Part shown: positions 2,046-59,573 of the stretch, one piece after another
Position numbering within the stretch: position 1 is the first letter of the stretch
How the letters are laid out: each line of letters opens with the position of its first letter
Source: an uncultured Alphaproteobacteria bacterium
GTDB lineage: Bacteria; Pseudomonadota; Alphaproteobacteria; RF32; CAG-239
DNA length: 64,000 bases
Assembly: GCA_944393225.1 (NCBI GenBank)
Contig: CALXZK010000009.1
Location: 2,104 to 66,103 of the forward strand
Direction of reading: 5' to 3'
Notes under the pieces: generated by a model
The model's database searches: none
Seen by the model: only the letters and a program-made list of their open reading frames with translations
Told to the model about the DNA's origin: nothing
Program-made: the position numbers and the translations under genes

Positions 2046-3005
2046 TTATTTTTCCTTATACCAATTTTCCGGTTTGATGACTTTTACATGATTGCCCCAA
2101 ATATAAAGGTGCCAATCCATTTCTAATCTGCCCCCGGCTCTGAACTTAACTGTTAATGTACCGTCTGGATTTCTTGTCTTGCTTTGTGTGGGGTGAAAAA
2201 TATATTGATCTGCATCTTTGGCTACGTCTTTATCAAACAACCATTCAACATCAAAAGGCTCTTCATGATAAGCCCCAAATGACTCTTCAGCATATTTTTG
2301 TAAACTGAAATTCGGTAGTTTTTCGATTACACTATTTAATATTTCCACTTCTCGAATGTTACTTAAAATAAAGTTATGAACCTCGTTTCCATAATATCCA
2401 TCAGTATGATGAGCAACTAAATAATGATTATGTTCTCCATATAAGAAGCCATAAGGATTAAGCGTATTAATACTTATTTTATCCGTACTTTGGTTGTAGT
2501 ATTTAATTCTGATTTGATGACTTTCCAAAATTGCTTGGCGAATTGCAGAAACAATCTTTTCATCTATTACAAGTCTTGGGCCGGGGCGGCAAATAAATCC
2601 TTCAGCTTCAAGCAAGGCTTCCGTATCAGGTTCAATTTTACGGATTACATCCGGTTTAATGCTGGCCCTGATTTTTTCTATCACTTTAACCAAGATTTCT
2701 TTTTTCTCATTCATTTGTTTACTTTCAAACAGCTCTTTAGCTGTTTCTAGAACCGATAATTCTTCGGCAGAAAAATTTATCAAATCCTTTAATGTTCCTT
2801 GTGGAATATACCAGCGTTTGGAATTACCTCCTTCAGTAGTTTCTTCTGCTTGAGGAAAGTATGTGATAATCATATCACGCATACGTTCCGCCGTGCGGCG
2901 CGAAACTTGATATTTTTCAGCAATATCATTTAAACTGACACCTTCACGGGTGGATTGCATCCAGACGGCTAAATCAAGTAAATCGTATGTTTTTTCGTAT
3001 GCCAT
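2046..3005 (-). CDS. HTH-WYL-WCX transcriptional regulator (BrxR/CapW/YafY-like), 319 aa
   Basis: N-terminal wHTH (VSLNDIAEKYQVSRRTAERMRDMI). Central WYL-like segment (IRIKYYNQSTDKISINTLNPYGFLYGEHNHYLVAHH...HNFILSNIREVEIL). C-terminal extension ending WHLYIWGNHVKVIKP. Confidence 0.75.
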   Translation of the reverse strand: MAYEKTYDLLDLAVWMQSTREGVSLNDIAEKYQVSRRTAERMRDMIITYFPQAEETTEGGNSKRWYIPQGTLKDLINFSAEELSVLETAKELFESKQMNEKKEILVKVIEKIRASIKPDVIRKIEPDTEALLEAEGFICRPGPRLVIDEKIVSAIRQAILESHQIRIKYYNQSTDKISINTLNPYGFLYGEHNHYLVAHHTDGYYGNEVHNFILSNIREVEILNSVIEKLPNFSLQKYAEESFGAYHEEPFDVEWLFDKDVAKDADQYIFHPTQSKTRNPDGTLTVKFRAGGRLEMDWHLYIWGNHVKVIKPENWYKEK

Positions 3006-3065
3006 GATTACTTCTCCTATTATTAAGATAAAATCATTTTACGACAAATTTTGACGCGGGCAAGA

Positions 3066-3082
3066 TTATTCTTAAAGAATAA
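3066..3082. promoter_or_regulatory. perfect 8-1-8 palindrome TTATTCTT-A-AAGAATAA, candidate operator of the WYL regulator
   Basis: Lies in the 106-nt divergent intergenic region between the WYL gene (start 3005) and ORF 3112. Confidence 0.35.
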
Positions 3083-3111
3083 GTTATTTTGTAAAATGTG
3101 AAAGGATAGTT

Positions 3112-3573
3112 ATGAAAAAAAATATATTTCTCTTCTTCATGAGTTGTCTTGCTTTATCTGTTTTTATTTTTGATAAAGACCCTTTTCAGAAGATGTTAGA
3201 GCAAACCGTCAACTACTTTGAAGCGAAAGGAGGTCAAATTTTTATTATCAATACCCAAACGCATCAAATTAAAAAAGAATATAAAATCGGAGAATCAGCT
3301 TTTTCTCCTTTAGCTTTTGGAAAAAAATCAGATTGTTTTCGCCAAACATTGCTTGTGAATAGCAAACAGATTGATACATATTCATGCACTCATATAAAAA
3401 AGAATCCCAATCAGGTCGAAACAATTTCATTTGCTAACCTTTCTTCAATCGGGAAAAATTATGAAGTTTGGGTTGTTTTGAATGAACCTAAGCCTAAAAA
3501 AGAGACTTTTGGTTTTGTAACAGCTCCGTGGACTACTCTGCCTCTTTTAAGAAAAATTATTTTGTCTTGGTAA
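3112..3573 (+). CDS. hypothetical secreted or membrane-anchored protein, 153 aa
   Basis: N-terminal hydrophobic signal-like segment KKNIFLFFMSCLALSVFIF. RBS-like AAAGGA upstream. Confidence 0.5.
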   Translation: MKKNIFLFFMSCLALSVFIFDKDPFQKMLEQTVNYFEAKGGQIFIINTQTHQIKKEYKIGESAFSPLAFGKKSDCFRQTLLVNSKQIDTYSCTHIKKNPNQVETISFANLSSIGKNYEVWVVLNEPKPKKETFGFVTAPWTTLPLLRKIILSW

Positions 3574-3579
3574 AAAATT

Positions 3580-3614
3580 GCCCTGATTTTATTTTTAAAT
3601 CAGGGCTTTTCTTT
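3580..3614. terminator. bidirectional rho-independent terminator
   Basis: GCCCTGATTT / AAATCAGGGC 10-bp stem. A-tract on the left and T-tract on the right. Sits between convergent genes. Confidence 0.7.
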
Positions 3615-4224
3615 ATTTTGACATAGGATGATATAATTGATGATTATTTCCTTGATGTGTTTCTCTTTTTAGCCAAATGAGATTGGTTACACTGTTGTTA
3701 AAAGAATTATTATCAATATGATGAACAACACAGGGTTCATTTTCATATGCTTGAGGTTTCTTCAAGAAGAATCGTGCAACTAATTTATGAAGATCATATT
3801 GATCTGAATTTCCGGTTATGTTTAAGCATATTTGACAACCAGAGTTTTTGCGATTTAGAGGAACAAAAGCATTATCTCTAAATAAGTCTTTTAATTCATT
3901 GGAAAAATCTTTCCAGCTTACACCCTGACTATTTTCGTCAGCTTTTTTCAATTCTTCGGGGATGATTGTTGATGCCTTTTCTTTGTCTTCATCTCGAATT
4001 TTTACAACATATCCCAGATTACTGATATAATATTCTTGATAATAATGTTTCCAAACTTCTTCAATTTGGGCTTGACCAATATAGCCCATTTTTTGAACCT
4101 GCTTTTCACATATCGGATGATTTTCCTCGCAATTCCATAGACGCTTGCTAATTTCAAGAATATTGTCGTGAGAACTTAAGCATAGGCGCAATGGAGGATT
4201 AAATATTTGTTCTACTTGTTCCAT
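3613..4224 (-). CDS. HNH endonuclease (NUMOD4/HNH_3-like, phage homing-endonuclease type), 203 aa
   Basis: ISNLGYVVK (NUMOD4-like) and VVHHIDNNSFNNSVTNLIWLKRETHQGNNH (H-N-H core). Confidence 0.7.
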   Translation of the reverse strand: MEQVEQIFNPPLRLCLSSHDNILEISKRLWNCEENHPICEKQVQKMGYIGQAQIEEVWKHYYQEYYISNLGYVVKIRDEDKEKASTIIPEELKKADENSQGVSWKDFSNELKDLFRDNAFVPLNRKNSGCQICLNITGNSDQYDLHKLVARFFLKKPQAYENEPCVVHHIDNNSFNNSVTNLIWLKRETHQGNNHQLYHPMSK

Positions 4225-4295
4225 AATTTTCTCCTTTAGTTGTATATATATTTCCCTTATACTCTATACCTATGACAATTTCTGACATATGCAAA

Positions 4296-4631
4296 TTATT
4301 TCTTTTTCAAATCAAATGAATCTAAAAATTTTAGAAGGTCTTGTTGAGAGGATTCATCTAATAAAGATATTTTATTAATTAGGTTCTCATTGGTGGTTAC
4401 AATGGCTTCGGCTTTTTCGGATATAAGTTGTAAGAGGTCAATATCCAACGCATAAAGGATTTTATATAAAGTATAAGCTCTTGGGTTTTGTTTGCGATTT
4501 TCAATCAGATTAACTGAAGAATAATCAGCATTACTGAATTCTGCTAATTTTTCACAGGAAAGTTTTTTGTTGTTGCGCTGTTTCCTTATAATTTTGCCAA
4601 TTTCGTTAAGAAAATCTTCTTCATTTAACAT
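4296..4631 (-). CDS. XRE-family HTH transcriptional regulator, 111 aa
   Basis: IRKQRNNKKLSCEKLAEFSNADYSSVNLIENRKQNPRAYTLYKILYALDIDL is a typical HTH_3 pattern. Confidence 0.75.
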   Translation of the reverse strand: MLNEEDFLNEIGKIIRKQRNNKKLSCEKLAEFSNADYSSVNLIENRKQNPRAYTLYKILYALDIDLLQLISEKAEAIVTTNENLINKISLLDESSQQDLLKFLDSFDLKKK

Positions 4632-4825
4632 TGTGTAAATCCCATAAAATTTATATGAGATTATACAATCGCTGTTTTCCTTATCTATTGTGTGAAGCCA
4701 ATAAAATATTGTTGACTACTATCTTGTTTTAGCTACTCTGAATATACAGCAGATTTTGATGCGACATATTTTGTCGTACACAAAGTTTATTATTTTGAAT
4801 GAACTACAAAAATAAGGAGATTATC

Positions 4826-5578
4826 ATGCGTAGAGATTTAACATTATATAATTTAGAGTTTCCTGATCAGGATAAGTTAGAAGAATATTGGAATAAAAGA
4901 TATTCAAGCGACTTTCACACCGAGGTTTTGGGAAGAATTAACAATCGCTCAAATAGCTTAAAATCTAAATGCGGTAAAATTTATGAGATTAATGATGAAA
5001 TTCTAAAAGATATTTTTGGAAGCCACAAAAATAATAATGAAAGATGTCTTGGTTGGACATATTTTAAGGTTAAACTGTTAAATGATTTTTACAGCACTGG
5101 AATCCAAGATATTTATACGGTTGTTGAAGATATGATTAAAATCAAAAATCTTGATGAAAATATTAAGAATGGCGATTTTAAAGCAGTAAACGAAATCAGA
5201 GATATTTTTAAGAACAATAAAGAAAACAAAAACAGCCGTGATATTTATTCTTTTGCCACTAAATTCTGCCATTTTTCAAATCCTGATAAGTTTTCTATTT
5301 ATGATCGTTATGTCGCTTATTTATTAAAGGACTATATGATAAAGTGGAAAGATAAATTTACTTCCGCTTTTATTAAATATAATGAAATATCTAAAGAAAA
5401 TAAGATTAATATTGATAAACCGACAGCAAGTGCACTTTTAACCGCTATGAGAGATTATACATTCTTTATGAATGTGGTTGATTTGTTTATGAGTAATTGC
5501 AAAATTTCTAAACGAAATTTAAGAGCAAAAGTTGATAATTATTTGTGGTTAGCGGGAATGAGGGAGTACCGTAAATAA
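4826..5578 (+). CDS. hypothetical protein, 250 aa
   Basis: Start moved to ATG 4826, which has AAGGAG 6 nt upstream. The ORF track starts at 4799. The motif YSFATKFCHFSNPDKFSIYDRYV faintly recalls OGG-fold-like hypothetical proteins (memory only). Confidence 0.5.
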   Translation: MRRDLTLYNLEFPDQDKLEEYWNKRYSSDFHTEVLGRINNRSNSLKSKCGKIYEINDEILKDIFGSHKNNNERCLGWTYFKVKLLNDFYSTGIQDIYTVVEDMIKIKNLDENIKNGDFKAVNEIRDIFKNNKENKNSRDIYSFATKFCHFSNPDKFSIYDRYVAYLLKDYMIKWKDKFTSAFIKYNEISKENKINIDKPTASALLTAMRDYTFFMNVVDLFMSNCKISKRNLRAKVDNYLWLAGMREYRK

Positions 5579-5580
5579 AT

Positions 5581-5930
5581 TATAGAGAGTTGTATAGAGA
5601 TTTAAATTGAGACACTCTATATAAAACCCTAAGGTTTGCAATGCCTTTAGAGAGATAGAAGTTTAATCAAGGATTATATATACCGAGGTATCAATAACAA
5701 ATATTATTAATTCTAAATAAAAAAATATATAAGATTACAGAAAGAATATTAAAATATATATTATATATACTTTGGGTTGTTTTTTTATTTAGACATTTTA
5801 TTTGTTATGATATATATATTGTAACCTGTTTTAATTCTCTATCTCTCTAAAACATACAGTTTCCTTAGTTTTTTTATAGTGAGCCTGAAAGTTTAACTCT
5901 CTAACCTTGTTAAAAACACTCTATATTAGC
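5581..5930. repeat. structured AT-rich non-coding module with nested inverted and direct repeats (candidate inverton, MITE or operator cluster)
   Basis: Left arm 5629-5659 is CTAAGG-12nt-TTAGAGAGATAGA. Right arm 5838-5868 is its inverted copy, TCTATCTCTCTAA-12nt-CCTTAG. The arms flank a 178-nt AT-rich core. Outer 9-nt inverted repeat TAGAGAGTT (5583-5591) / AACTCTCTA (5895-5903). 11-nt direct repeat ACACTCTATAT (5612-5622 and 5916-5926). Confidence 0.6.
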
Positions 5931-6103
5931 ATATCCTTTGTTTTCTAAGCATATAAAAGAACTTTGCATATTCCTATATTTGTTTATCAAAAACATTCAA
6001 AATCTCGTTATATGCGAAGGAAATACAAGTTATTTTAGACTATTAATAAAATATTTTATTTTTAATAGTATTGCTTTATCATAAAGGGGTAAAGGAGCAT
6101 CCT

Positions 6104-7018
6104 ATGGAAAAGCAAATAATTGAAGTTTCGAACAATGGATTTTCTTTATTTTTACATAGAGGTTTTATAGTTATCGAGAATAAAAATATTCCGATAGAAA
6201 CAAAAATTCCATTGGATAATATTTTATCATTAGTAATTAGTGCTAATGATTTGATACTTTCTAAAAATGTAATAAATGCCATAACTGAACAAGGGGCAAA
6301 TATTATTTGTTGTGGTAAAAATTATGTTCCTTCTTCAATTATAATTCCTTGCGAAGGGCATTGGCTAGTCGCATCAAGAGTTCAAAATCAAATAAAATGT
6401 TCTAAGCCTTTACAGAAAAATTTATGGAAGAGTATTATTCAAAATAAAATTTATAATCAATCTAAAATTTTAGAATTCTTTTTTCCCAACCATAGTAATA
6501 TTGCACGACTTAAACAATTAGCTAAGAATACACTTAGTAATGATGTGCGAAATAATGAAGGAGTGGCGGCTTCAATTTATTTCAAATCGTTATTTGGTAA
6601 GAACTTTGTACGAGATAGATTAAGCGGTGACGTTAATATTTTATTGAACTATGCTTACATAGTTCTTAGAGCTATGGTTATAAGAGCAATTTGTGGTAAT
6701 GGATTATTGCCTTTTTTAGGATTAAAGCATTGCGCTAAAACCAACACATTTCCTTTGGCTGATGATTTAATGGAACCGTTTAGGCCGTGGGCTGACAAAT
6801 TAGTATTTGAGGAAATAAATAGACTTGTTAATATTCAAGATATTGAATTGACGCCGGAAATAAAACGAAGATTAACAGGACTGATTTCTATTCCCGTTAA
6901 GACCGGCAAGGGTTGTGTCTTATTAAATGATGCCGTGTTTGATTTTGTAGGAAGTTTGATTGCTAGTTTTGAAGATAAGAAAGTTAAATTAAAATATCCA
7001 GAATTTGAAGATAGTTGA
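6104..7018 (+). CDS. cas1: CRISPR-associated endonuclease Cas1 (type II), 304 aa
   Basis: NNEGVAASIYF, NILLNYAYIVLRAMVIRAI, GLLPFLGLKH and LADDLMEPFRPWAD are Cas1 hallmarks. Start set at ATG 6104 with AAGGAG 6 nt upstream. The stop TGA (7016-7018) lies inside CRISPR repeat 1. Confidence 0.9.
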   Translation: MEKQIIEVSNNGFSLFLHRGFIVIENKNIPIETKIPLDNILSLVISANDLILSKNVINAITEQGANIICCGKNYVPSSIIIPCEGHWLVASRVQNQIKCSKPLQKNLWKSIIQNKIYNQSKILEFFFPNHSNIARLKQLAKNTLSNDVRNNEGVAASIYFKSLFGKNFVRDRLSGDVNILLNYAYIVLRAMVIRAICGNGLLPFLGLKHCAKTNTFPLADDLMEPFRPWADKLVFEEINRLVNIQDIELTPEIKRRLTGLISIPVKTGKGCVLLNDAVFDFVGSLIASFEDKKVKLKYPEFEDS

Positions 7019-7835
7019 CCGTCTAATTAATCTCTGATATGCTTGTTGTGGCAATACTGTTTATAAGATCATAGTTATAGTTGACCGTCTAATTAATCTC
7101 TGATATGCTGCAAACGACAAAGCTGTTCGTGAGTTGATTGTTATAGTTGACCGTCTAATTAATCTCTGATATGCTGTTTATTGAGTTGTTGCTCGGTAAT
7201 AGTACGTTATAGTTGACCGTCTAATTAATCTCTGATATGCTTCCGCTGTTGAACGGAACATATAAAATTCAGTTATAGTTGACCGTCTAATTAATCTCTG
7301 ATATGCTAATATCGGTACGTTACTATCGTTCAAGCGTGTTATAGTTGACCGTCTAATTAATCTCTGATATGCTAAAAGATATGCTATCAAGTTGATATAA
7401 GCTGTTATAGTTGACCGTCTAATTAATCTCTGATATGCTCCTTTTGGCTTGCAATAGTTCTTGAAGTTTGTTATAGTTGACCGTCTAATTAATCTCTGAT
7501 ATGCTCTTAAAACGTCTTTAACGCCCTTGCAATCAGTTATAGTTGACCGTCTAATTAATCTCTGATATGCTAAAGCCGTGATTAATGCTTTCCCGGACTT
7601 AGTTATAGTTGACCGTCTAATTAATCTCTGATATGCTAAATACCTATTGTTGCCCCTTGCAGATCTCGTTATAGTTGACCGTCTAATTAATCTCTGATAT
7701 GCTCTATTCGTTGTGTGACTTCAGATCCTTTTCGTTATAGTTGACCGTCTAATTAATCTCTGATATGCTTATTATGATTGAGTTACGCGACTACCAGCAG
7801 TTATAGTTGACCGTCTAATTAATCTCTGATATGCT
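7008..7835 (+). CRISPR. CRISPR array: 13 x 36-nt repeats, 12 x 30-nt spacers, period exactly 66 nt
   Basis: Repeat is GTTATAGTTGACCGTCTAATTAATCTCTGATATGCT, starting at 7008, 7074, 7140 and so on to 7800. Repeats 2-13 are identical. Repeat 1 has AAG instead of GTT at positions 1-3. Orientation (+) follows from complementarity to the tracrRNA anti-repeat. Confidence 0.97.
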
Positions 7836-7850
7836 ATGTAATAGCACAAA

Positions 7851-7876
7851 GCCTTGAAATAACTAGATTTCAAGGC
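7851..7876. terminator. hairpin between the array end and the cas2 stop
   Basis: GCCTTGAAAT-AACTAG-ATTTCAAGGC, a perfect 10-bp stem. Flanking T-tracts are weak, so terminator function is uncertain. Confidence 0.4.
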
Positions 7877-7910
7877 CTTGCTTTAATAAAAAAATGTTGT
7901 TTGTTTATTC

Positions 7911-8273
7911 CTAAAACAGCAATAGCTGTCCATTTTTTTCGCGAATCTCTTCTTCATTATCTTCAAAATTCTTACCTAAATAGTTCTCGGTCATTAGATA
8001 TTGTTTATCGGTAATATAAATAAACGATACCGAAGAATTATCGGGTATGAATTTGGATAACTTTTTAGTTAAGGTTTGTCCTACCGACAAACTCTTAACC
8101 GGTTTGATGTAAACGGAAAACTGCTTCATCATAAAACCTTCATCAAGTAGGAGATTGCGAAAGCGGGTGGCTTTGCGCATCTCGGTTCGAGTTCTGACTG
8201 GTATGTCAAACATACAGATTATCCACATCATCGACCAACCGGTTAAGGTTTCAAGCCGTTTTTGTCGAGCCAT
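7911..8273 (-). CDS. cas2: CRISPR-associated endoribonuclease Cas2, 120 aa
   Basis: WSMMWIICMFDIPVRTRTEMRKATRFRNLLLDEGFMMKQFSVY is a type II Cas2 N-terminal pattern. Overlaps the cas9 3' end by 23 nt. Confidence 0.85.
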   Translation of the reverse strand: MARQKRLETLTGWSMMWIICMFDIPVRTRTEMRKATRFRNLLLDEGFMMKQFSVYIKPVKSLSVGQTLTKKLSKFIPDNSSVSFIYITDKQYLMTENYLGKNFEDNEEEIREKNGQLLLF

Positions 8274-11200
8274 TGCTTAATATCTTATGTTTTTTCTTTA
8301 TTTTACCAAACGGGGTTAATTCTACCTTACGGGCATTATGTTTTATAAAATAGCTTAATCCTTTATCAGAAATTGTGTCAACAATCATATATGTTATACT
8401 TTTATCTTGAGGAGTAGTCATTCTAGCATCTGACACATAATCTATGGCTAATTTTCCTTCGCTAAACTTCTTGACTTTTGCTAAGCATCTTGGCTTATCA
8501 GTATAGCTTTGCCATTCATCAGGTGTGTCCAACTCAAGCAAATCCCCTTGCTGAATCGACCAGATGATTTTTCCTCCCTGCTGTTGCCATTGGGGGATAA
8601 AATCTTTTTGATTGATGTCAAAACATCTGATAACTTCCCAACCGATTTTTCCATCTTTTTGATAAAAATCTACTCGGTAGTTATTTCTTCCCTCGTAAGC
8701 TGTACCATTAGCTCCATGCTTGGGTATAAAGACAAGAGATGAATTGTTTTCATAACTCCTAAATTTATCGCCTTGCCATAAATCATCCTCTTGAATGAGA
8801 TAAAAAGCCCTAGTTAAAATGCGGCTTTCGGTTATGGCGATTTCTTTTTTGCCTTCAGACACGGCTTTTTCATTTTCTTCAATTAATTTTTGCTCAGCTG
8901 TATTTGCATAAAGTTCAAAGTCTTTGACTAATTGAGCTTGTTTGGCTTTGTCTTCGGCAATGTGCTCATTCCACTCATCTTTAATTGAATCGGGAATGAG
9001 TAATTTGTTTAAGTCTTTCATCGACTTGACGACTTGTAATATCTTGCGTGAATAAACTGTGATTAAGGATTTGTTGTCATCTGGATTGACACATAAAACC
9101 GTTCTACCGGTTTCTTTATGGAGTTTTCCGGCTTTGCTGTGTTCGGGTTTGTGCGAAACGTTAACCTTACTTAATACTTCAATCACTTGGCGGCGAAACT
9201 CTCCGACTGCCTCAATGCTTGTTAACGGCAGGGGTACACGCTGGTGCGGTAAATCGATTTCATTAGCCATATGCTGGATCAGGGAACGATTCATACAAGC
9301 AACAGTTATGGCATCCATGGCGTGATGACGATGGTCAATTCTGGGCTTTGATATCCATTCTTTGTTCTTAGTTTTATCAAAAAATCTCCATTTGCCATCA
9401 ATATTAGGTTGTTTTACTCCTTCAATAATTTCTCCGGTATCTTGCTCAACCCAATAAGGAGAACAATTTACATATCTTGGAATATCCAATCCCATGAGAT
9501 CATATTCCAAACCTTCCAAATTCCAACAACGACGCATATGAGCGGTTTGAGCTCCTTTAACCGGAAGAATCCGATTATGAATCACTTCTTCACTATCAGG
9601 GCTATCAACAATTGCTCTTAAATATCGTGCCGCCATTTTGGAGACATAACGCGTATCTGTTAAATAGCGTGTAGTTTCATCTGCGTCCCCTTCTTCCTCG
9701 AATTTTTCGCGGGCGTCGGCCTCAAACCTCCAGGCTTTAGCAGGTGTCCTCTCTCGGGCATTCTTCAGAATTTCTCGGATAAGTTCTTCTGTTTTTTGAC
9801 CTTTACCGACAAAGTAATCATAGGCAAAATCATTAACTTTAGCATTATTATCATTGCGGTTTACCAGACAAAGGTTGTTATAGGTATCGGTTCCGCCTTT
9901 GGCTCGCGGGATGATATGCTCAATTTCAAAACCTGAAAAATTACGGGGAATGCTAACCGTTGGGTTGTAGGCATCTTTCCATCCTTGTTCTTTGGCTAGT
10001 TTATATTTCAAAATGTTCTTGCCGTTAATAAACAGCTTGTGCTCTTTTAAATATTGTTTGGCCTCTTCATTAAGTTTTTCATTATTTTTTTGCTTTTGCT
10101 CTTCTTGCTTTTTCTTCTTGGTTGACATACCAACATCTCGACCAAGCTCAATGTTAATGTCATACGGTTTGCCGTAAATGCGGATTATATCATTTACCAC
10201 CAAGCGGAGTTGATTTAAAATCATATGAACTGCTGGATTGGCTATTTTGCCCCATTTAACTTCATTTAATAGTCCTTCTTTTTCTTTTCCTGATATTTGT
10301 TTTAGCAATTCAGTTTTGTATTGTTTTATTAACGGCGGTAAGGGTTGCGTATCTGCTTGCAAAATCTCACCATAATAAGGAAGCTCTTGACAATTACCCT
10401 GATTTTGGCTGGCGACTTCTTCCGATGCCATAAATCGGGCATCATTTTTAGCTAAATCATCGGTTATTTCTCTGTGGGTTATTACTTGTTCTTTTAATTT
10501 TTTCAAAATAATTTTTGAGGCACTTTCTCCTAACATCCCGCGACCTTTGGGCAGTTTGGTCAACAGCTTACCGATTTCTTTGTCATTATCTATTTTTAAA
10601 ATCGACTTAAGATGATTAATCAGTTCATCCTCACTGTATAAACGACCGTTTTTATCATTGGGGTTGACCGGATTAGCTAAAAAGTCAACAAGTTTTGCCA
10701 ATTCTTCATCTGAGAGCTTTTGTATATATTCTATTTCTAAGAATTCGGGACGTGAGTATAAATAAGCCTTGATGTTTTTATCATCAAGTAAAGATATTTT
10801 TTGTTGAGCTGAAAGACCTAATAATTTTTTGATAGCTGATTTTCCGGCATTTTTGCCTTGCAATAAAAGCTCGTTGATAATTTTATCTCTTTCTTCTAAA
10901 GTTAGCTTGCGTTTATTGGTGTCGCTTAATACACGGATATTATTTACTTCTTCATAAATACGTCTTAATTCTGATAAAGGATGTGCTTTCAGCAGTCTGT
11001 CTTCATCTTTGAAATAAATACATTTTCCAGTAGCATAAGGAGCTGGTGGACGCTCATAAAACAAGATATCATAAATTTCTTTTTTCAAACCTTCTTTTTG
11101 CATTTGGGAAAAATATTGAGCCTGTGTATTCCAGATTTGATTAAATTCATCTTTTACCAGATAACGAGGAATCGCATAATCAACAATATGTTGTTTTAAG

Positions 11201-11799
11201 GCGTGTTCTTTTTGACGGATTATTCTTTTGTTTGCGTTTGTTTTTACTCCATTTTTATCTTTTTCGTATCCTTCGCGAATTCGTTTGTAAAAAAACTCAC
11301 CGATTGTTTTAGAATTTGTTTCTTTTAAATGCTCGGACATCATGTCGTAAGCTGATTTTTTAGCTTTGGATTTTTCACCTTCTTCCAAAATTTCTTCTTG
11401 TAACTCTTCCGAGGCAGTTACAAATCCGGCACCGCGGTGCTTGGCTATATGCAGAATGGCTCGTCCTATATAATTAGGGTTAGGCAACCTACCATTTAAT
11501 GCGTCATTGCGAATCTTATAAGGAGATTTTGCGCGTAAATGCTCAGTTCCTTCTGGAGTTTCATTTACCCAAAGGTGGTTTTCAAAAAGTTTTTGCGCTA
11601 ATAATTCTAATCTTTGGCGGGTACGAACCTGATTCTTGCGCATTGTTCGTTTGAGGCGACGTTCTTCAGCTCCTTCCGAGACATTAAAAATACGAACTCC
11701 GACATCGATAATCTTTTGAGGATTGTTATAATCATCTAACTCAATAATTGCGCTACCGATGGAGCCAACCCCTAAGTCTAAACCCAAACGATACTTCAT
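8251..11799 (-). CDS. cas9: Cas9, type II-C-like, about 1182 aa
   Basis: RuvC-I is LGLDLGVGSIGSAII. An Arg-rich bridge helix follows. RuvC-II is DINIELGRD. HNH is FEIEHIIPRAKGGTDTYNNLCLVNRNDNNAK. RuvC-III is IDHRHHAMDAITVA. Start chosen at ATG 11799 (MKYRLGLDLG), which has GGAG 6 nt upstream. The track start 11805 abuts the SD. Confidence 0.95.
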   Translation of the reverse strand: MKYRLGLDLGVGSIGSAIIELDDYNNPQKIIDVGVRIFNVSEGAEERRLKRTMRKNQVRTRQRLELLAQKLFENHLWVNETPEGTEHLRAKSPYKIRNDALNGRLPNPNYIGRAILHIAKHRGAGFVTASEELQEEILEEGEKSKAKKSAYDMMSEHLKETNSKTIGEFFYKRIREGYEKDKNGVKTNANKRIIRQKEHALKQHIVDYAIPRYLVKDEFNQIWNTQAQYFSQMQKEGLKKEIYDILFYERPPAPYATGKCIYFKDEDRLLKAHPLSELRRIYEEVNNIRVLSDTNKRKLTLEERDKIINELLLQGKNAGKSAIKKLLGLSAQQKISLLDDKNIKAYLYSRPEFLEIEYIQKLSDEELAKLVDFLANPVNPNDKNGRLYSEDELINHLKSILKIDNDKEIGKLLTKLPKGRGMLGESASKIILKKLKEQVITHREITDDLAKNDARFMASEEVASQNQGNCQELPYYGEILQADTQPLPPLIKQYKTELLKQISGKEKEGLLNEVKWGKIANPAVHMILNQLRLVVNDIIRIYGKPYDINIELGRDVGMSTKKKKQEEQKQKNNEKLNEEAKQYLKEHKLFINGKNILKYKLAKEQGWKDAYNPTVSIPRNFSGFEIEHIIPRAKGGTDTYNNLCLVNRNDNNAKVNDFAYDYFVGKGQKTEELIREILKNARERTPAKAWRFEADAREKFEEEGDADETTRYLTDTRYVSKMAARYLRAIVDSPDSEEVIHNRILPVKGAQTAHMRRCWNLEGLEYDLMGLDIPRYVNCSPYWVEQDTGEIIEGVKQPNIDGKWRFFDKTKNKEWISKPRIDHRHHAMDAITVACMNRSLIQHMANEIDLPHQRVPLPLTSIEAVGEFRRQVIEVLSKVNVSHKPEHSKAGKLHKETGRTVLCVNPDDNKSLITVYSRKILQVVKSMKDLNKLLIPDSIKDEWNEHIAEDKAKQAQLVKDFELYANTAEQKLIEENEKAVSEGKKEIAITESRILTRAFYLIQEDDLWQGDKFRSYENNSSLVFIPKHGANGTAYEGRNNYRVDFYQKDGKIGWEVIRCFDINQKDFIPQWQQQGGKIIWSIQQGDLLELDTPDEWQSYTDKPRCLAKVKKFSEGKLAIDYVSDARMTTPQDKSITYMIVDTISDKGLSYFIKHNARKVELTPFGKIKKKHKILSNGSTKTA

Positions 11800-11858
11800 A
11801 AACATCTCCTTGTCTTATTGTTGTGCAACCATATATAAAACAACTTATAATATTGTAC

Positions 11859-11888
11859 TTGACTTTTCAATCAAAATATTCTTATATT
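11859..11888 (+). promoter_or_regulatory. sigma70-like promoter for the tracrRNA
   Basis: TTGACT (11859-11864), 17-18 nt spacer, TTATAT/TATATT (11882-11888). Divergent from cas9. Confidence 0.5.
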
Positions 11889-11894
11889 ATAAAT

Positions 11895-11999
11895 AATATA
11901 TGTTTTGATTTTTTCAGAGATTAATTAGACGGTCAATACATATATAATAAGGCTTTATGCCGCAAAATGAGGGGGTGAGTAATTGCCCCCATTATTTTT
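11895..11999 (+). ncRNA. tracrRNA
   Basis: CAGAGATTAATTAGACGGTCAA (11915-11936) is a perfect 22-nt complement of repeat positions 8-29. After a bulge, TATAAT can pair with repeat GTTATA. AAGGCTTTATGCCG is a nexus-like hairpin. GGGGGTGAGTAATTGCCCCC plus ATTATTTTT is a terminator. The 5' end is approximate. Confidence 0.85.
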
Positions 12000-13104
12000 A
12001 TATGTTATCAAAAATCATCGGATATTTGTGAAGGAATTTTTGGAAGAGCTTGGTTGCTTCTTTGTTATCTAAAGTTTTGGGAAGTTTAAGCGTGATGCTA
12101 TCGGTATTAACTTGTTTGCCGGAAGTATCAATAATGCAATATTTATTGTTTACGGCAACAAAAGCTTGTCCATTATAAAATTGTCCGACCTTATCAAAAA
12201 TTATCGGAATGATGTTTTTTCCGGTATTGTCCATATATCCCCAGTGATTATGGCAAGTAATCGGTTTAAGCTCTTCTTGGTTGCTTGCCTCTGTAGAACT
12301 ATTAATACTTTTATCGGGTAGACCTGTAACTCCGTATTTACCATCTTCATCTCTAAATATGACTTTTCCGTTGGGAGTTATATCTTCAACCGACTTATTG
12401 GCAAAATTGATTATTTCCTTGCCTTGATAGTCAATAATCGTTTGCCATGAATAGGCTTTGCCTAAATATTCAAAACTCCTTTTTATGCACCAATATTTAC
12501 CATTAGACCAATAGTCTTCTATATTTTCCAGGTTAAAGTTATATTGGCTTTGTAAGTGTTTTATTCGGTATTCTCTTAAATTTAACAGTTTATTTTTAGC
12601 ATAATCGGCAATATTTGAGTTATCGGTTGTTAAATTTGCCCAATTTTCTACAGGTGCATCGCTTCTGATTATGGCATTGTAGAAGTTATCAAACAGTCTT
12701 TTATTAAATGTTTGCTTAAGGCAAAAATCTTCAAAGCCACGCTGATTTACATATTCTTTCATATCTTCCGGAATAAATGCCGCAAGATTATACATATAAT
12801 TCAATAAGTCGCTTTTTTTATGTTTAAGCAGAACAGAGATATATTCAGGAGAGTGAGGCTTGTTTCTGGGTAAAAGCTTCAAAATTCGTGAAATAGCAGT
12901 TTGGGATAGCAGGTTACTTTTACGTTCTAATTTGTTTTTACCAATAGTTATACGCATAGGTTTTGCAAGGGTAATTTTTACATAATAAAAAAAGGGCAAA
13001 GCAAATTCCAGATAGCAACCGCAATCGCCGTTTGCCTGTTTTTGACGGTAAACTTTTATCCATTTGCGGGTATATAAATCCTTATATAAATGTTTTTCAG
13101 TCAT
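11998..13104 (-). CDS. hypothetical protein with C-terminal WG-containing (KWG-type) repeats, 368 aa
   Basis: HWGYMDNTGKNIIPIIFDKVGQFYNGQAFVAVNNKYCIIDTSGKQV resembles WG beta-repeat units. The N-terminal 270 aa are unrecognised. Confidence 0.5.
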   Translation of the reverse strand: MTEKHLYKDLYTRKWIKVYRQKQANGDCGCYLEFALPFFYYVKITLAKPMRITIGKNKLERKSNLLSQTAISRILKLLPRNKPHSPEYISVLLKHKKSDLLNYMYNLAAFIPEDMKEYVNQRGFEDFCLKQTFNKRLFDNFYNAIIRSDAPVENWANLTTDNSNIADYAKNKLLNLREYRIKHLQSQYNFNLENIEDYWSNGKYWCIKRSFEYLGKAYSWQTIIDYQGKEIINFANKSVEDITPNGKVIFRDEDGKYGVTGLPDKSINSSTEASNQEELKPITCHNHWGYMDNTGKNIIPIIFDKVGQFYNGQAFVAVNNKYCIIDTSGKQVNTDSITLKLPKTLDNKEATKLFQKFLHKYPMIFDNI

Positions 13105-13169: not shown

Positions 13170-13754
13170 TCATATCATTTCAATTATTTTTTTATGAGCT
13201 TCGGTATTATACTCAATATATCGTTGTGTTGTGGCTAGGCTTGAGTGTCCGGCAAGCTGTCTGACGTCATTTATCGTTCCTCCGGCTTGGCTGATCATTT
13301 TTGCTGCTTGGGTGATAAAAGTTCTTCTGCCGCTATGAGATGAGCATCCATCCATGTTTAACCCCTTATACAGTAAATAAAAGAAATTAACGATTGCCTG
13401 AGCAGACATTTTCTTATCTCTCTCGGTCGTTATTATATATGAAGATAGGTTCATACTCTCTCTTTTTAAGTCTGTCAGCGACTTTTTTAAGTCTTTATGC
13501 AGCGGTATAATCCGACCGGAATATTTACCTTTAGAAGCGTTATTTGGTAAATTGATGCTGTCTGATATATACCCTTCGCTATCACATACCATCGACCATG
13601 TGAGTTGGGATATTTCCTTGGCCCTTAAACCGGCTTTGAAGCTCAGTAAAAACATTATTTTGTTTCTGAGCGGATATCTGGTATTTTCCAAATAGGATAA
13701 GACCATTGTTTGTTGTTTCGCGTTTAATATTTTTGCTTGTTTTCCTATACCCAT
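13170..13754 (-). CDS. small tyrosine recombinase, catalytic domain only (FimB/FimE-sized), 194 aa
   Basis: GLRAKEISQL (Arg I), HSGRRTF (H-x-x-R) and LAGHSSLATTQRYI (His and Tyr nucleophile). Start set at ATG 13754 with GGAG 6 nt upstream. The track start is 13784. Confidence 0.8.
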   Translation of the reverse strand: MGIGKQAKILNAKQQTMVLSYLENTRYPLRNKIMFLLSFKAGLRAKEISQLTWSMVCDSEGYISDSINLPNNASKGKYSGRIIPLHKDLKKSLTDLKRESMNLSSYIITTERDKKMSAQAIVNFFYLLYKGLNMDGCSSHSGRRTFITQAAKMISQAGGTINDVRQLAGHSSLATTQRYIEYNTEAHKKIIEMI

Positions 13755-14131
13755 AATGTTCTCCAAGTTATTATAATTACACAATATTTTATATAAATTA
13801 TAATGACTTTATTTTAACTATCAGCGGATTTGTTGTTAAAAGCCTTGAAAAATAAGGACTTATTATAAAATATAAAATTTCTAATAAGTTTTTTAAGAAT
13901 AAAATTTTATGTTCCATTGACATTTATAAATAGTTGTGGTAGCTATATAAATGCATATCAATAAGGTTATTTGTCAACCGGATATGTTTTTATATAAGGA
14001 CAAATCTTATATGAAAAGAGTGGCTTTGAAGAGCAGAAAATCGGTGCAACTGCAGAACACAACGTATTTGTGTTGTAATGATGGGAAACACCGTCCATCC
14101 AAAGCCACTTCATCTTTATGAAAGGTTTTTT

Positions 14132-58742: not shown

Positions 58743-59573
58743 TTACCAGCCACCGTCATCCTCATCATCACCATTATCATCACTCTGATCATAATAATCA
58801 TCATTGTCATAATCCTGATCATCGTCGGGATCATTATTATCCCAAGGATCATCATTATTATCCCAAGGATCATCATTATAGTCCCCAGAATTCTCGTGAT
58901 AATCATCAAATAGACTGTGACTTTCTTCCTGATGTTCGTCATAGTAACGATCATCATGGTCTCGCCGGTCATCTTCTTCCTCTTCGCGTTCTCTTTCTTC
59001 GCGTTCCCAGCGTTCATGTTCTTCTTCCTCTTCGCGTTCACGTTCTTCACGTTCATATCGATCACGTTCTTCTTGTTCTTCACGTTCTCTCTCTTCACGT
59101 TCCCAACGTTCACGCTCTTCCTGCTCTTCCCGCTCTTTTTCTTCACGTTCCAATCGATCGCGTTCTTCTTGTTCTTCACGTTCTCTCTCTTCACGTTCCA
59201 ACCGATCGCGTTCTTCTTGTTCTTCTCGCTCTTGGCGCTCACGTTCTTCTCGTTCAAGCCGTTCAAGCTCTTCACGATACTCTCGCTCCTGACGCTCACG
59301 TTCTTCTCGTTCCTTACGTAAACTTTCAGAATGATAACGCCTTTCTTCAGCTTGCCGATATTCTTCATAGTCATGAGCTTTGGTTTCATCCAAAAAGCCA
59401 TCATCTTCAGATGAAGAAGGGGTTTGCTTAGGAGTTGGAGCTTCATCTTCATTGAAGTATCCGTTACCGTAACCAAAAGCATTCGAACAAGGGCACAATC
59501 CTCTGCGGCGCAGGACGCTTACTCTTTGCCCCATGGCTAAGCAGTAGCCATTATAAATTTTTCCACAATTCAT
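58743..59573 (-). CDS. Glu/Arg-repeat (ER/K-type charged helix-like) protein with Cys-containing N-terminus and poly-acidic tail, 276 aa
   Basis: This is the only one of four overlapping frames with a non-repetitive N-terminus (MNCGKIYNGYCLAMGQRVSVLRRRGLCPCSN) and a matching downstream terminator. The core is about 6 x 16-aa units of REEREREEQEERDR[LWY]E. Confidence 0.6.
   Translation of the reverse strand: MNCGKIYNGYCLAMGQRVSVLRRRGLCPCSNAFGYGNGYFNEDEAPTPKQTPSSSEDDGFLDETKAHDYEEYRQAEERRYHSESLRKEREERERQEREYREELERLEREERERQEREEQEERDRLEREEREREEQEERDRLEREEKEREEQEERERWEREEREREEQEERDRYEREEREREEEEEHERWEREEREREEEEDDRRDHDDRYYDEHQEESHSLFDDYHENSGDYNDDPWDNNDDPWDNNDPDDDQDYDNDDYYDQSDDNGDDEDDGGW
58975..59300 (-). 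repeat. 48-nt tandem coding repeats (alternating variants, 96-nt super-period)
   Basis: For example, CGATC[A/G]CGTTCTTCTTGTTCTTCACGTTCTCTCTCTTCACGTTCC recurs at ~59058 and ~59154. Confidence 0.8.

What the first reader, a model, noticed from the sequence alone, without database searches (positions are those of the whole stretch)
5581..5930. Inverted-repeat-flanked AT-rich module upstream of cas1: possible invertible promoter (inverton) or MITE
Two 31-nt arms face each other around a 178-nt extremely AT-rich core. The left arm (5629-5659) reads CTAAGG-N12-TTAGAGAGATAGA. The right arm (5838-5868) is its inverted copy. The 6-nt and 13-nt blocks are perfect and keep identical 12-nt spacing.

The core contains a promoter-like TTAGAC-16nt-TGATATATA (about 5789-5816), currently pointing toward cas1. 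Outside the arms lie more copies of the same TAGAGAG/TATAGAG motif: a 9-nt inverted repeat at 5583-5591 and 5895-5903, and an 11-nt direct repeat at 5612-5622 and 5916-5926.

The island also encodes a FimB/FimE-sized tyrosine recombinase (13170-13754). That class flips promoter segments bounded by inverted repeats. Phase-variable control of a detached cas1 would be novel. Alternatively, this is a ~350-bp non-autonomous element that inserted here.
Basis: partly seen in the sequence, partly recalled or inferred. Interest (0 to 1): 0.62.

Follow-up and report, generated by a model that had tools for sequence, protein, structure and literature searches.

The report
Fixed palindromic promoter spacer, not a switch
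The inverted repeats are real, but they close a single-copy 346-bp AT-rich palindrome between two defence-island genes where RNA for the downstream genes begins; no assembly shows it flipped or copied elsewhere, and it sits next to cas1 only because a restriction-gene cassette is missing here.

Summary
The arms are where stated, and the perfect block is 14 nt (5646-5659 / 5838-5851). The 178-nt "core" is itself palindromic. The whole of 5581-5926 folds as one long hairpin (z about -5).

The main interpretations fail. About 21 independent assemblies or contig sets all show one orientation. The arms carry 1-2 uncompensated mismatches in relatives. The nearby recombinase is not FimB/E-like and does not co-occur with the module. 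Flipping a palindrome with mirror-image promoters would switch little. It is not a dispersed MITE either: no second copy turned up in the window, in 93 related loci, or in the metagenome, viral, plasmid and phage searches.

The module follows the upstream gene (p259, family PF27257 HI_0787_N), not cas1. In most relatives a GmrSD restriction gene starts about 25 nt after the palindrome. One relative keeps the module and has no cas genes.

In two metatranscriptomes, long RNA contigs for the downstream cargo begin exactly at the inner edge of the right arm (equivalent to window 5837).

Best reading: a fixed-orientation palindromic promoter/boundary module that is structurally unstable (deletion alleles exist). 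Interest is modest.

The parts
5581..5926 (.). Composite AT-rich imperfect palindrome (346 bp, 77% A+T) centred at ~5749. It fills the spacer after the p259 stop codon.
   Evidence: Folds as one long hairpin: DNA z = -5.6, 0 of 100 shuffles as good. The TAGAGAG/TATAGAG motifs run + + - + [core] - + - -. It is collinear in L001, L002 and L081-L086.
5641..5868 (.). Inner palindromic element (~228 bp). It is the segment missing from the empty allele (L007 and one X8 allele).
   Evidence: L007 reads ...CCCTAATATTTCCA|TTTTTTTATAGAGAG.... An X8 loose end at 5632 reads the same. Self-reverse-complement match is 67% over 228 nt. Fold z = -4.5 to -5.3.
5646..5659 (+). Left terminal arm, 14 nt perfect in the window (TTTAGAGAGATAGA).
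   Evidence: Relatives read TTAGAGGGATAGA, so they mismatch the right arm at position 7.
5838..5851 (-). Right terminal arm, 14 nt perfect in the window (TCTATCTCTCTAAA on the + strand).
   Evidence: L002 reads TCTATCTTTCTAA.
5712..5725 (+). Left half of the inner perfect 14-nt inverted repeat. Its partner is 5780-5793.
   Evidence: It is in register with the outer arms, which shows that the core is palindromic.
5780..5793 (-). Right half of the inner perfect 14-nt inverted repeat.
5629..5634 (+). Outer 6-nt block CTAAGG (partner CCTTAG at 5863-5868). It is window-specific and probably a chance match. In the window only, it places the hairpin base directly before the T7 run at 5869-5875.
   Evidence: Not kept as an inverted repeat in L001, L002 or L081. 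The left copy is flank, because it is present in the empty allele L007.
5789..5816 (+). Promoter-like site P1: TTAGAC, 16 nt, TATATA, with TG at 5808-5809. It points toward cas1.
   Evidence: Read from the sequence. It is conserved as TTGGAC-16-TATATA in L081 and L085. Its -10 ends 21 nt upstream of the mapped RNA 5' end.
5673..5700 (-). Mirror-image promoter-like site on the - strand: TTGTTA, 16 nt, TATAAT. It points toward the 3' end of p259.
   Evidence: 10 of 12 matches. It is not well conserved in L085 (read from the L085 sequence printed).
5836..5837 (+). Position equivalent to the RNA 5' end of the downstream cargo transcript.
   Evidence: X29 (7471 nt, depth 77) and X30 (2316 nt, depth 37) contigs both start at L085:1619, and X29 has Illumina adapter fused there. 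The same contig laid on the window starts at 5836 and on L001 at 5270/5272.
5926..5932 (.). Junction where relatives carry a 2.47-kb GmrSD cassette (593 aa and 213 aa genes). It lies right after ACACTCTATAT, the right end of the palindrome.
   Evidence: L001:5361-7829. X4 and X5 loose ends match it. L081 and L085 have it too. Pfam GmrSD_N and GmrSD_C, PADLOC HEC-06 at 5e-49.
4799..5578 (+). p259, a PF27257 (HI_0787_N) family protein of unknown function. This is the gene the module travels with.
   Evidence: The module is present only where p259 is present.
6104..7018 (+). cas1. It has an RBS AAAGGAG at 6091-6097, and its stop codon lies inside the first, 5'-degenerate CRISPR repeat.
   Evidence: Pfam Cas_Cas1 at 1.8e-27. 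Sequence. Conservation of the overlap.
6037..11998 (.). The CRISPR-Cas II-C block (cas1, array, cas2, cas9, tracrRNA), which behaves as one swappable cassette.
   Evidence: L085 and the X8, X29 and X37 alleles diverge from the window at 6036. L085 resumes at 11998 with four unrelated ORFs in between.
13170..13784 (-). Small tyrosine recombinase, catalytic domain only. It is not tied to the module.
   Evidence: Pfam Phage_integrase. Xer-like in NCBIfam, with the FimB/E invertase model at 13 bits against a cut-off of 221. Co-occurrence with the module fails.

Best explanation
Window 5581-5926 is a single-copy, fixed-orientation, AT-rich imperfect palindrome. It forms the spacer between a PF27257 (HI_0787_N) gene and whatever cargo lies downstream in a variable defence island. 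It acts as an expression boundary. RNA of the upstream gene is low and fades out in the left arm. Abundant RNA for the downstream cargo has a defined 5' end at the inner edge of the right arm (window 5837 by homology).

That 5' end could arise in two ways. Or the long RNA hairpin in read-through transcripts could be cut at its base, as RNase III does for Correia elements.

In most relatives the first cargo gene is a GmrSD restriction enzyme that starts ~25 nt after the palindrome. The window lacks that cassette, so the same start now faces cas1, 267 nt away. No predicted terminator lies between them. The cas1 stop codon is inside the first repeat, so such a transcript would run on into the CRISPR array.

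The palindrome is structurally unstable. Alleles that lack its central 228 nt, and probably its central 101 nt, co-exist with full alleles.

Shown: the anatomy, copy number, orientation, the linkage to p259, and the RNA 5' end in relatives. Inferred: which promoter fires or whether the end is processed, read-through into cas1 in this genome, and the deletion direction of the polymorphism.
For: Anatomy:
- One long hairpin, z = -4.5 to -5.6, with no shuffle as good.
- Nested perfect 14-nt inverted repeats in register.
- Mirror-symmetric motif order.

Single copy:
- No second copy in the window or in 80 related loci.
- A two-terminus pattern scan of 241 million metagenome records gave 6 hits, all at the orthologous locus.
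- None in viral contigs, plasmids or phages.
- Long k-mer contigs cross the module unbroken in X3, X5, X6 and X11.

Fixed orientation: identical in the window, L001, L002 and L081-L086. There are no strand-switch joints in 12 metagenome contig sets.

Linkage:
- The module is present wherever the close p259 allele is (L001, L002, L081-L086; L007 keeps the outer part).
- It is absent upstream of cas1 in L003-L006 and L008-L010.
- L085 has the module but no cas genes.
- GmrSD has its RBS and ATG ~25 nt after the palindrome in L001, L081 and L085.

RNA:
- X29 and X30 cargo contigs both start at L085:1619, with adapter fused in X29. This confirms on L001 and on the window.
- The p259 contig has depth 5.6 against 77 for the cargo, and it ends 32 nt into the left arm. 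No RNA contig covers the core.
- The X29 contig continues across the 5932-6036 spacer into the next cargo.
- No terminator-like site lies between 5400 and 7850.

Instability:
- Empty allele in L007 and X8. A contig that skips 101 nt at the centre is in X8.
- The L007 flank is nested among the filled alleles, and the distant human-gut relatives are filled. This favours deletion.
Against: - The RNA 5' end rests on two samples of one study, and on assembled contigs that carry no strand information. Three other studies were too thin to replicate it.
- The mapped end is 21 nt past the end of P1's -10, too far for a simple start from P1.
- The better-placed P2 has a poor -10 in the window (TGTTTT). 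So the window's own copy may fire weakly or not at all.
- No RNA from a window-type locus (palindrome followed by cas1) was found.
- cas1-bearing relatives without the module share only ~60 nt of upstream DNA with the window (6041-6103). So cas1 probably has its own proximal promoter, and the palindrome's contribution may be minor.
- The arms evolve at about the neutral rate (83-89% against 84% at p259 third-codon positions). Hairpin pairs break without compensation: 14 broken, 7 one-sided, 1 compensatory. Selection on the structure is therefore not demonstrated.
Confidence: 0.6

Rival explanations
1. Relic of a mobile palindromic element (MITE-like). A ~220-bp non-autonomous element with ~14-20-bp terminal inverted repeats inserted once into the loop of an older small palindrome. 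It is now immobile, and its outward promoter has been co-opted. This rival concerns origin and is compatible with the function proposed above.
For: - Clean empty site in L007 and in an X8 allele.
- Terminal inverted repeats and full-length hairpin potential.
- Possible 5-bp target duplication: TTTCC is on the left in L002 and L081 and on the right in the window, L001 and L081, and occurs once in L007.
- Between the window and L001 the inner element is 95.6% identical, against ~88% for its immediate flanks and 85% at p259 third-codon positions. This would fit a younger or exchanged segment.
- One 1.1-kb X8 contig carries both ends of the element and then an unrelated right flank straight after the right arm.
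- Correia elements show that such elements can supply promoters at their ends and RNase III sites (PMC2649163).
Against: - No second copy anywhere searched.
- Metagenome contigs are not broken at the element's edges.
- The proposed duplication is imperfect, and 3 extra bases separate it from the flank.
- The inner element shares its centre and its motif with the outer palindrome. A central deletion predicts this; an unrelated insertion does not.
- The L007 flank is nested among filled alleles, and the most distant relatives are filled.
- No transposase with matching ends is in the window.
Confidence: 0.25
2. Invertible promoter (inverton). The nearby tyrosine recombinase flips 5660-5837 between the arms and turns the downstream genes (cas1 here) on and off.
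For: - Inverted repeats bracket a segment that holds a promoter-like site, and an RNA 5' end lies at the arm's inner edge.
- A small tyrosine recombinase lies 7.3 kb away.
- Contigs drop rare variants, so a minority orientation cannot be excluded.
Against: - There is one orientation only in the window, 8 related assemblies and 12 metagenome contig sets, with no strand-switch joints.
- The arms carry 1-2 uncompensated mismatches in relatives.
- The segment is palindromic with mirror promoter-like sites, so inversion would swap like for like.
- The recombinase scores 13 bits against the FimB/E invertase model, cut-off 221, and is Xer-like.
- L005 has the recombinase without the module. L081 has the module with no recombinase on its 13-kb contig.
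- L007 lacks the segment altogether.
- Ordinary promoters flanked by inverted repeats are common and distinct from invertons (PMC11602134).
Confidence: 0.04
3. Pure RNA-level element with no internal promoter. p259 and the cargo are co-transcribed. The long hairpin is cut by RNase III or a similar enzyme, or it acts as a terminator or attenuator. This yields an unstable upstream fragment and a stable cargo mRNA that starts in the right arm.
For: - The 5' end lies in the terminal stem, not at a canonical distance from P1.
- A hairpin of ~75 pairs forms on either strand as RNA, z = -4.7 and -5.3.
- Most arm mismatches in relatives are G-U compatible on the + strand (7 one-sided changes that keep the pair).
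- In the window the hairpin base (CTAAGG/CCTTAG) is directly followed by T7.
- There is a Correia/RNase III precedent (PMC2649163).
Against: - The depth step between p259 and cargo is more than 10-fold. This model would have to explain it entirely by RNA stability.
- The p259 contig ends at L085:1465, which is not opposite the 1619 cut.
- There is no covariation.
- The terminator-like geometry exists only in the window, and the terminator scan does not call it.
Confidence: 0.2
4. Functionless AT-rich palindromic DNA. It would be a by-product of an inverted duplication that drifts neutrally, and the RNA contig starts would be assembly artefacts.
For: Divergence is near-neutral, there are no compensatory changes, and deletion alleles are tolerated.
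Against: - Two independent samples give the identical start, and one has the sequencing adapter fused.
- The arms are shorter than the assembler's 31-nt word, so they cannot by themselves break contigs.
- The GmrSD gene needs a promoter, and its RBS lies only 25 nt beyond the palindrome.
Confidence: 0.1

Closest known systems
Correia repeat enclosed elements (CREE) of Neisseria, and similar small palindromic intergenic repeats (ERIC/IRU, RUP, Rickettsia palindromic elements)
   Same: Short and non-coding, closed by inverted repeats, and able to fold as a hairpin in RNA. It lies between genes and is associated with a transcript start at its end. CREE can generate promoters at either or both ends and can be cut by RNase III (PMC2649163 abstract). 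It also shows presence/absence polymorphism between strains.
   Different: - Those families have tens to hundreds of dispersed copies per genome. This element was found only at one locus.
- It is longer (228 bp inner, 346 bp composite) than CREE. The CREE size of roughly 100-160 bp is from my own knowledge.
- The termini look unrelated by eye (no alignment was run).
- No clean target duplication.
Invertons such as E. coli fimS and the Bacteroides capsule promoters
   Same: A promoter-bearing segment of a few hundred bp bracketed by short inverted repeats, with a tyrosine recombinase gene in the neighbourhood.
   Different: No second orientation is seen, the arms are not kept identical, and the segment is palindromic. 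The recombinase is not in the FimB/E family and does not co-occur with the module.
Ordinary 'inverted repeat promoters' (regular promoters flanked by inverted repeats, as distinguished from invertons in PMC11602134)
   Same: Fixed orientation, with inverted repeats around a working promoter region. This is the category it fits best by behaviour.
   Different: The repeats here are not just flanks but the tips of a ~100-bp-arm palindrome. It is also polymorphic for a large central deletion.
Long AT-rich palindromes that are prone to deletion through hairpin or cruciform formation (palindrome instability; SbcCD and replication slippage in E. coli; from my own knowledge)
   Same: Long imperfect AT-rich palindrome. 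It has alleles with deletions that remove the centre, and the centre diverges fastest (73% against 84-89%).
   Different: Instability is inferred from natural alleles only. No mechanism was tested.

Membership tests
Inverton (invertible promoter) | Inverted repeats bracket the segment | tested here: met
   14-nt perfect arms 5646-5659 / 5838-5851. In relatives they carry 1-2 mismatches.
Inverton (invertible promoter) | Both orientations occur within or between populations | tested here: not met
   There is one orientation in the window, L001, L002, L081-L086 and 12 metagenome contig sets, with no strand-switch joints. Only contigs were available, not raw reads, so a rare minority orientation is not excluded.
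Inverton (invertible promoter) | A directional promoter inside, so that flipping changes downstream expression | tested here: inconclusive
   A rightward RNA 5' end exists. But the segment is palindromic, with a mirror promoter-like site on the - strand, so flipping would put a similar site in place.
Inverton (invertible promoter) | A cognate invertase that co-occurs with the site | tested here: not met
   The recombinase is Xer-like. The FimB/E model NF007370 scores 13 bits against a cut-off of 221. It is present without the module in L005 and absent from the module-bearing contig L081.
MITE (miniature inverted-repeat transposable element) | Short and non-coding, with terminal inverted repeats | tested here: met
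   ~228 bp, no ORF of 60 aa or more, 14-nt arms.
MITE (miniature inverted-repeat transposable element) | Multiple dispersed copies | tested here: not met
   No further copy in the window or 80 loci. The metagenome pattern scan gave only orthologous sites. None in viral, plasmid or phage collections. The whole source genome could not be searched.
MITE (miniature inverted-repeat transposable element) | Target-site duplication at the insertion | tested here: inconclusive
   An imperfect TTTCC lies on both sides and occurs once in L007. Three extra bases remain, and the junction equally fits slippage across a hairpin.
MITE (miniature inverted-repeat transposable element) | Filled and empty sites among relatives | tested here: met
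   L007 and one X8 allele are empty. The direction (insertion or deletion) is unresolved and leans toward deletion.
MITE (miniature inverted-repeat transposable element) | A parent IS with the same termini | tested here: inconclusive
   The arm sequence occurs nowhere else in the 64-kb window. The rest of the genome was not available.
Intrinsic terminator | A stable hairpin directly followed by a U run | tested here: inconclusive
   In the window the CTAAGG/CCTTAG base of the long hairpin abuts T7 (5869-5875). This geometry is absent in relatives, and the scan's short-stem model does not call it. p259 RNA does end within the left arm.
tracrRNA or CRISPR leader of the adjacent type II locus | An anti-repeat complementary to the CRISPR repeat (tracrRNA), or a position next to the acquiring end of the array (leader) | tested here: not met
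   The anti-repeat CAGAGATTAATTAGACGGTCAA with a terminator lies at ~11905-12000. The module is 1.1 kb from the array, beyond cas1 at the degenerate-repeat end, and it persists in L085 without any CRISPR.
Known RNA families (Rfam 15) | A match at the gathering score | tested here: not met
   Only two tRNAs in the whole window.

The most novel reading that the evidence does not exclude
The palindrome is the entry module of a cargo slot in a defence island. It would be a portable promoter-plus-insulator, and possibly a folded recombination site. Behind it, whole defence systems are exchanged: GmrSD, a complete type II-C CRISPR-Cas block, or an unknown four-gene system. The conserved small tyrosine recombinase at the far end of the slot might carry out the exchange, which would make this an integron-like arrangement for multi-gene defence cassettes.
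Probability: 0.06. Interest if true: 0.7.

Novelty: new member of a known kind. Interest (0 to 1): 0.3.

Why it matters
- It removes a tempting but wrong call. Inverted repeats, a promoter and a nearby recombinase do not make an inverton. Here the comparative and contig evidence argues against switching, and the adjacency to cas1 is an accident of a lost cassette.
- If the RNA start holds, the module shows how one fixed palindromic spacer can separate a weakly expressed gene from strongly expressed, exchangeable defence cargo. In this genome it would supply upstream transcription to cas1 and, through cas1, to the CRISPR array.
- The locus is also a clear natural example of a long palindrome with co-existing full and centrally deleted alleles.
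- None of this changes current understanding of CRISPR regulation or phase variation.

Tried and rejected
- tracrRNA hypothesis for the module: rejected. The tracrRNA is at ~11905-12000, upstream of cas9.
- CRISPR leader: rejected. The module is on the degenerate-repeat side beyond cas1, and it persists without CRISPR.
- Rfam: no family matches.
- Exact-protein look-ups for Cas1 (two starts, plus one frame error of mine) and for p259 found nothing on record.
- Covariation support for the hairpin: none. There were 14 broken pairs, 7 one-sided changes and 1 compensatory change. A first script timed out.
- Constraint test: the arms evolve at about the third-codon rate.
- Distant p259 homologues (L087-L093) have unrelated, mostly short downstream spacers with no TAGAGAG motifs. 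L088 has its own AT-rich stretch bracketed by ATAGCG/CGCTAT, which I did not pursue.
- PADLOC, PHROGs and NCBIfam give no function for p259.
- Replicating the RNA 5' end in three other studies failed for lack of coverage. No window-type cas1 RNA was found.
- attC-like site: considered and dropped. The module is far longer than the usual attC size range, I saw no R-box consensus by eye, and the recombinase is not an integron integrase (TIGR02249 scores 13 bits against a cut-off of 265).
- The 1.1-kb X8 contig with a different right flank could not be resolved, because only 30 nt of its flank are visible.
Full report
**1. The observation**

Left arm 5629-5659 reads CTAAGGTTTGCAATGCCTTTAGAGAGATAGA. 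The reverse complement of 5838-5868 reads CTAAGGAAACTGTATGTTTTAGAGAGATAGA. The perfect inner block is in fact 14 nt (5646-5659 / 5838-5851), and a second perfect 14-nt inverted repeat lies inside it in the same register (5712-5725 / 5780-5793).

The outer 9-nt inverted repeat and the 11-nt direct repeat are also present. The core is 178 nt and 83% A+T.

This is more than chance:
- Only 47 of 2000 dinucleotide shuffles of this AT-rich spacer give any perfect 13-nt inverted repeat.
- Four of the window's five TAGAGAG heptamers lie in these 350 nt.

**2. Anatomy: one long palindrome, not arms around a core**

The ~240-nt segment 5636-5875 matches its own reverse complement at 67% over 228 nt. It folds as a single hairpin of about 75 pairs. 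The z-scores are -4.5 as DNA and -4.7 and -5.3 as RNA of the two strands, and no shuffle out of 200 does as well.

The TAGAGAG/TATAGAG motifs outside the arms run + + - + [core] - + - - about the same centre (~5749). The whole of 5579-5930 folds as one hairpin (z = -5.6). So the module is a composite 346-bp imperfect palindrome.

**3. Context**

The neighbourhood is a type II-C-like CRISPR locus in a low-GC gut alphaproteobacterium known only from metagenome-assembled genomes (chicken and human gut). Its parts are:
- cas9, 8251-11805 on the - strand.
- cas2, 7911-8273 on the - strand.
- An array of 13 repeats, 7008-7835.
- cas1, 6104-7018 on the + strand.
- The tracrRNA, on the + strand at ~11905-12000.

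The module is therefore neither the tracrRNA nor the leader. Rfam finds only two tRNAs in the window.

The gene just upstream of the module, p259 (4799-5578), belongs to the uncharacterised family PF27257 (HI_0787_N). A WYL/WCX regulator and an XRE protein lie further upstream.

**4. Comparative evidence**

Cas1-based retrieval gave a graded series of relatives.

- L001 (96% Cas1) and L002 (94%) carry the module in the same place and orientation.
- L007 (81%) has an empty site. It reads ...CCCTAATATTTCCA|TTTTTTTATAGAGAG..., where the others hold ~228 nt (window 5641-5868). It keeps the outer palindrome, which still folds (z = -2.5).
- The same empty allele occurs in metagenome X8 alongside filled alleles. 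A further X8 contig skips the central 101 nt.
- A pattern requiring both termini, scanned over the metagenome collection, returned six contigs. All are the orthologous locus in a more distant human-gut relative.
- No copy exists elsewhere in the window or the 80 loci. None exists in viral contigs, plasmids or phages.
- Long metagenome contigs cross the module unbroken.

The outer 6-nt block is not an inverted repeat in any relative, and its left copy is present in the empty allele, so it is flank. The 13-nt arms are perfect only in the window. L001 and L081 have one mismatch and L002 has two.

**5. The module belongs to p259, not to cas1**

- The module is present wherever the close p259 allele is, and absent upstream of cas1 in L003-L006 and L008-L010. 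Those loci share with the window only the last 0-60 nt before the cas1 start codon.
- In L001, L081 and L085 (and in X4 and X5) a GmrSD type IV restriction gene begins ~25 nt after the palindrome's right end. It has its own RBS. The cassette is 2.47 kb and sits exactly at window 5926|5932.
- L085 keeps p259, the palindrome, GmrSD and the 5932-6036 spacer, and has no cas genes. Window 6037-11998 is replaced there by four unrelated ORFs.

The CRISPR block is thus one exchangeable cassette. The palindrome lies near cas1 in the window only because the GmrSD cassette is missing.

**6. The inverton test**

- The orientation relative to the flanks is the same in the window, in eight other assemblies, and in contigs from 12 metagenomes. 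No strand-switch joint was reported. Only contigs were available, so a rare minority orientation cannot be excluded.
- The recombinase at 13170-13784 is a catalytic-domain-only, Xer-like enzyme. The FimB/E invertase model scores 13 bits against a cut-off of 221.
- It accompanies the locus in L005, which has no module. It is absent from the 13-kb L081 contig, which has one.
- The segment is palindromic and carries a mirror-image promoter-like site on the - strand (TTGTTA-16-TATAAT, 5700-5673). Inversion would therefore replace one outward-facing site with a similar one.
- Ordinary promoters flanked by inverted repeats are a recognised category distinct from invertons (PMC11602134).

**7. RNA evidence**

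Two random-primed chicken-gut metatranscriptomes from one study hold long contigs that start at exactly L085:1619. This is the base before the right 13-mer. The contigs run through GmrSD and beyond: X29 is 7471 nt at depth 77, and X30 is 2316 nt at depth 37. In X29 the end of the Illumina adapter is fused at that position. The same start maps to L001:5270/5272 and to window 5836/5837.

The p259 contig in X29 has depth 5.6 and ends 32 nt into the left arm. No RNA contig covers the core. The X29 contig crosses the equivalent of window 5932-6036 into the next cargo.

Two promoter candidates precede the start:
It is conserved, but its -10 ends 21 nt upstream of the mapped end.
- P2 is TTGTTA-17-TATTTT. 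It is well placed, but its -10 is degenerate in the window (TGTTTT).

The end could equally be a processing site at the base of the RNA hairpin, as described for Correia elements and RNase III (PMC2649163). Three other studies were too thin to replicate it. No RNA from a window-type locus was found.

**8. Selection**

Against the distant L086, the arms are 83-89% identical. p259 third-codon positions are 84% identical, and the centre of the palindrome is 73%. Relative to the window's hairpin, the L081-type sequence has 14 broken pairs, 7 one-sided changes and 1 compensatory change, yet it still folds (z about -3.9). So the palindrome looks inherited and drifting, not maintained by covariation.

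Between the window and L001 the inner element is more alike (95.6%) than its flanks (~88%). This could reflect recombination or a younger origin.

**9. Explanation**

The best-supported reading is a fixed-orientation, single-copy palindromic spacer that marks an expression boundary. Upstream-gene RNA is low and ends in the left arm. Cargo RNA begins in the right arm.

In this genome the cargo is cas1. The cas1 stop codon lies inside the first repeat, and no terminator is predicted before 7851. A transcript from the module would therefore also feed the array.

The filled/empty polymorphism is most simply a deletion of the unstable palindrome centre:
- The L007 flank is nested among the filled alleles.
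- The most distant relatives are filled.
- The inner and outer parts share a centre and a motif.

An old insertion of a palindromic element cannot be excluded. I put about 0.6 on the boundary/promoter module, 0.25 on a mobile origin (compatible with that function), 0.2 on a purely RNA-processing mechanism, 0.1 on no function and 0.04 on an inverton.

**10. Novelty and score**

Inverted-repeat promoters and small palindromic intergenic elements that create promoters and RNase III sites are known kinds. This one is an undescribed, locus-specific example in an uncultured lineage. The proposed phase-variable control of cas1 is not supported. Interest is 0.3.

Noticed in passing
window 6104-11805; L001-L010: Unusual type II-C layout. 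cas1 is on the opposite strand and on the far side of the array from cas9-cas2 (cas1 -> array <- cas2 <- cas9). This is conserved in ten relatives down to 65% Cas1 identity. A 50% relative (L011) has the usual cas1-cas2 adjacency.
   Followed up: partly
window 7008-7018; L001, L002, L004, L008 (remnants in L003, L005, L009): The cas1 stop codon lies inside the first, 5'-degenerate CRISPR repeat. Every cas1 mRNA must therefore run into the array on the crRNA-sense strand. L006, L007 and L010 have a gap instead.
   Followed up: partly
window 7015-7835, + strand: Each of the 13 repeats carries a sigma-70-like promoter (TTGACC, 17 nt, TATGCT, with an upstream TG) that fires into the next spacer. 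This is the arrangement described for Neisseria and Campylobacter type II-C arrays (from my own knowledge). A terminator-like hairpin follows the array at 7851-7876.
   Followed up: no
window ~11905-12000, + strand: Putative tracrRNA divergent from cas9. It has the anti-repeat CAGAGATTAATTAGACGGTCAA, a nexus-like AAGGCTTTATGCCG, and the terminator GGGGGTGAGTAATTGCCCCC followed by a T run. Rfam does not call it.
   Followed up: no
window 6037-11998 versus L085:4300-8957: The whole CRISPR-Cas block is replaced in a human-gut relative by four ORFs (142, 219, 934 and 252 aa) with no Pfam match. They lie between the same flanks: the p259 palindrome on one side, and the WG-repeat gene plus tyrosine recombinase on the other. 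This is probably another defence system in the same slot.
   Followed up: partly
L001:5373-7797; also L081 and L085: A GmrSD-family type IV restriction gene (593 aa) plus a 213-aa partner form a 2.47-kb cassette. It is present or absent at window 5926|5932 among close strains, and it is highly expressed in chicken-gut metatranscriptomes.
   Followed up: partly
window 2046-5578; L087, L089: A WYL/WCX regulator sits near the PF27257 (HI_0787_N) gene in distant relatives too. An XRE-type small gene lies between them in the window, in L001 and probably in L087. This suggests a regulated defence-type module of unknown function.
   Followed up: no
window 3112-4224: Two genes, a 153-aa secreted-looking protein and a 203-aa HNH homing-endonuclease-like protein, sit between the WYL and XRE genes. 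They are absent from that position in L001, which is another indel in the island.
   Followed up: no
metagenome run X8, contig of 1111 nt (window 5645-5720 + 5822-5849): This contig carries both ends of the inner element without its central 101 nt. It then continues into unrelated sequence (CAGCTTATGGTTTTATTGATT...) straight after the right arm. It is either a second genomic context or a rearranged allele. I could not resolve it.
   Followed up: partly
metagenome runs X26/X27, window 5964: A further allele joins sequence identical to L002:6412-6441 directly to window 5964. It therefore lacks p259 and the whole palindrome upstream of cas1.
   Followed up: partly
L088:3898-4044: Downstream of a 49%-identical p259 homologue lies a different AT-rich stretch bracketed by ATAGCG ... 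CGCTAT motifs. The architecture is similar but the sequence is unrelated.
   Followed up: no
window 58972-59313: A long imperfect tandem repeat (periods 48 and 96) in a region of about 40% GC, presumably inside a coding sequence.
   Followed up: no
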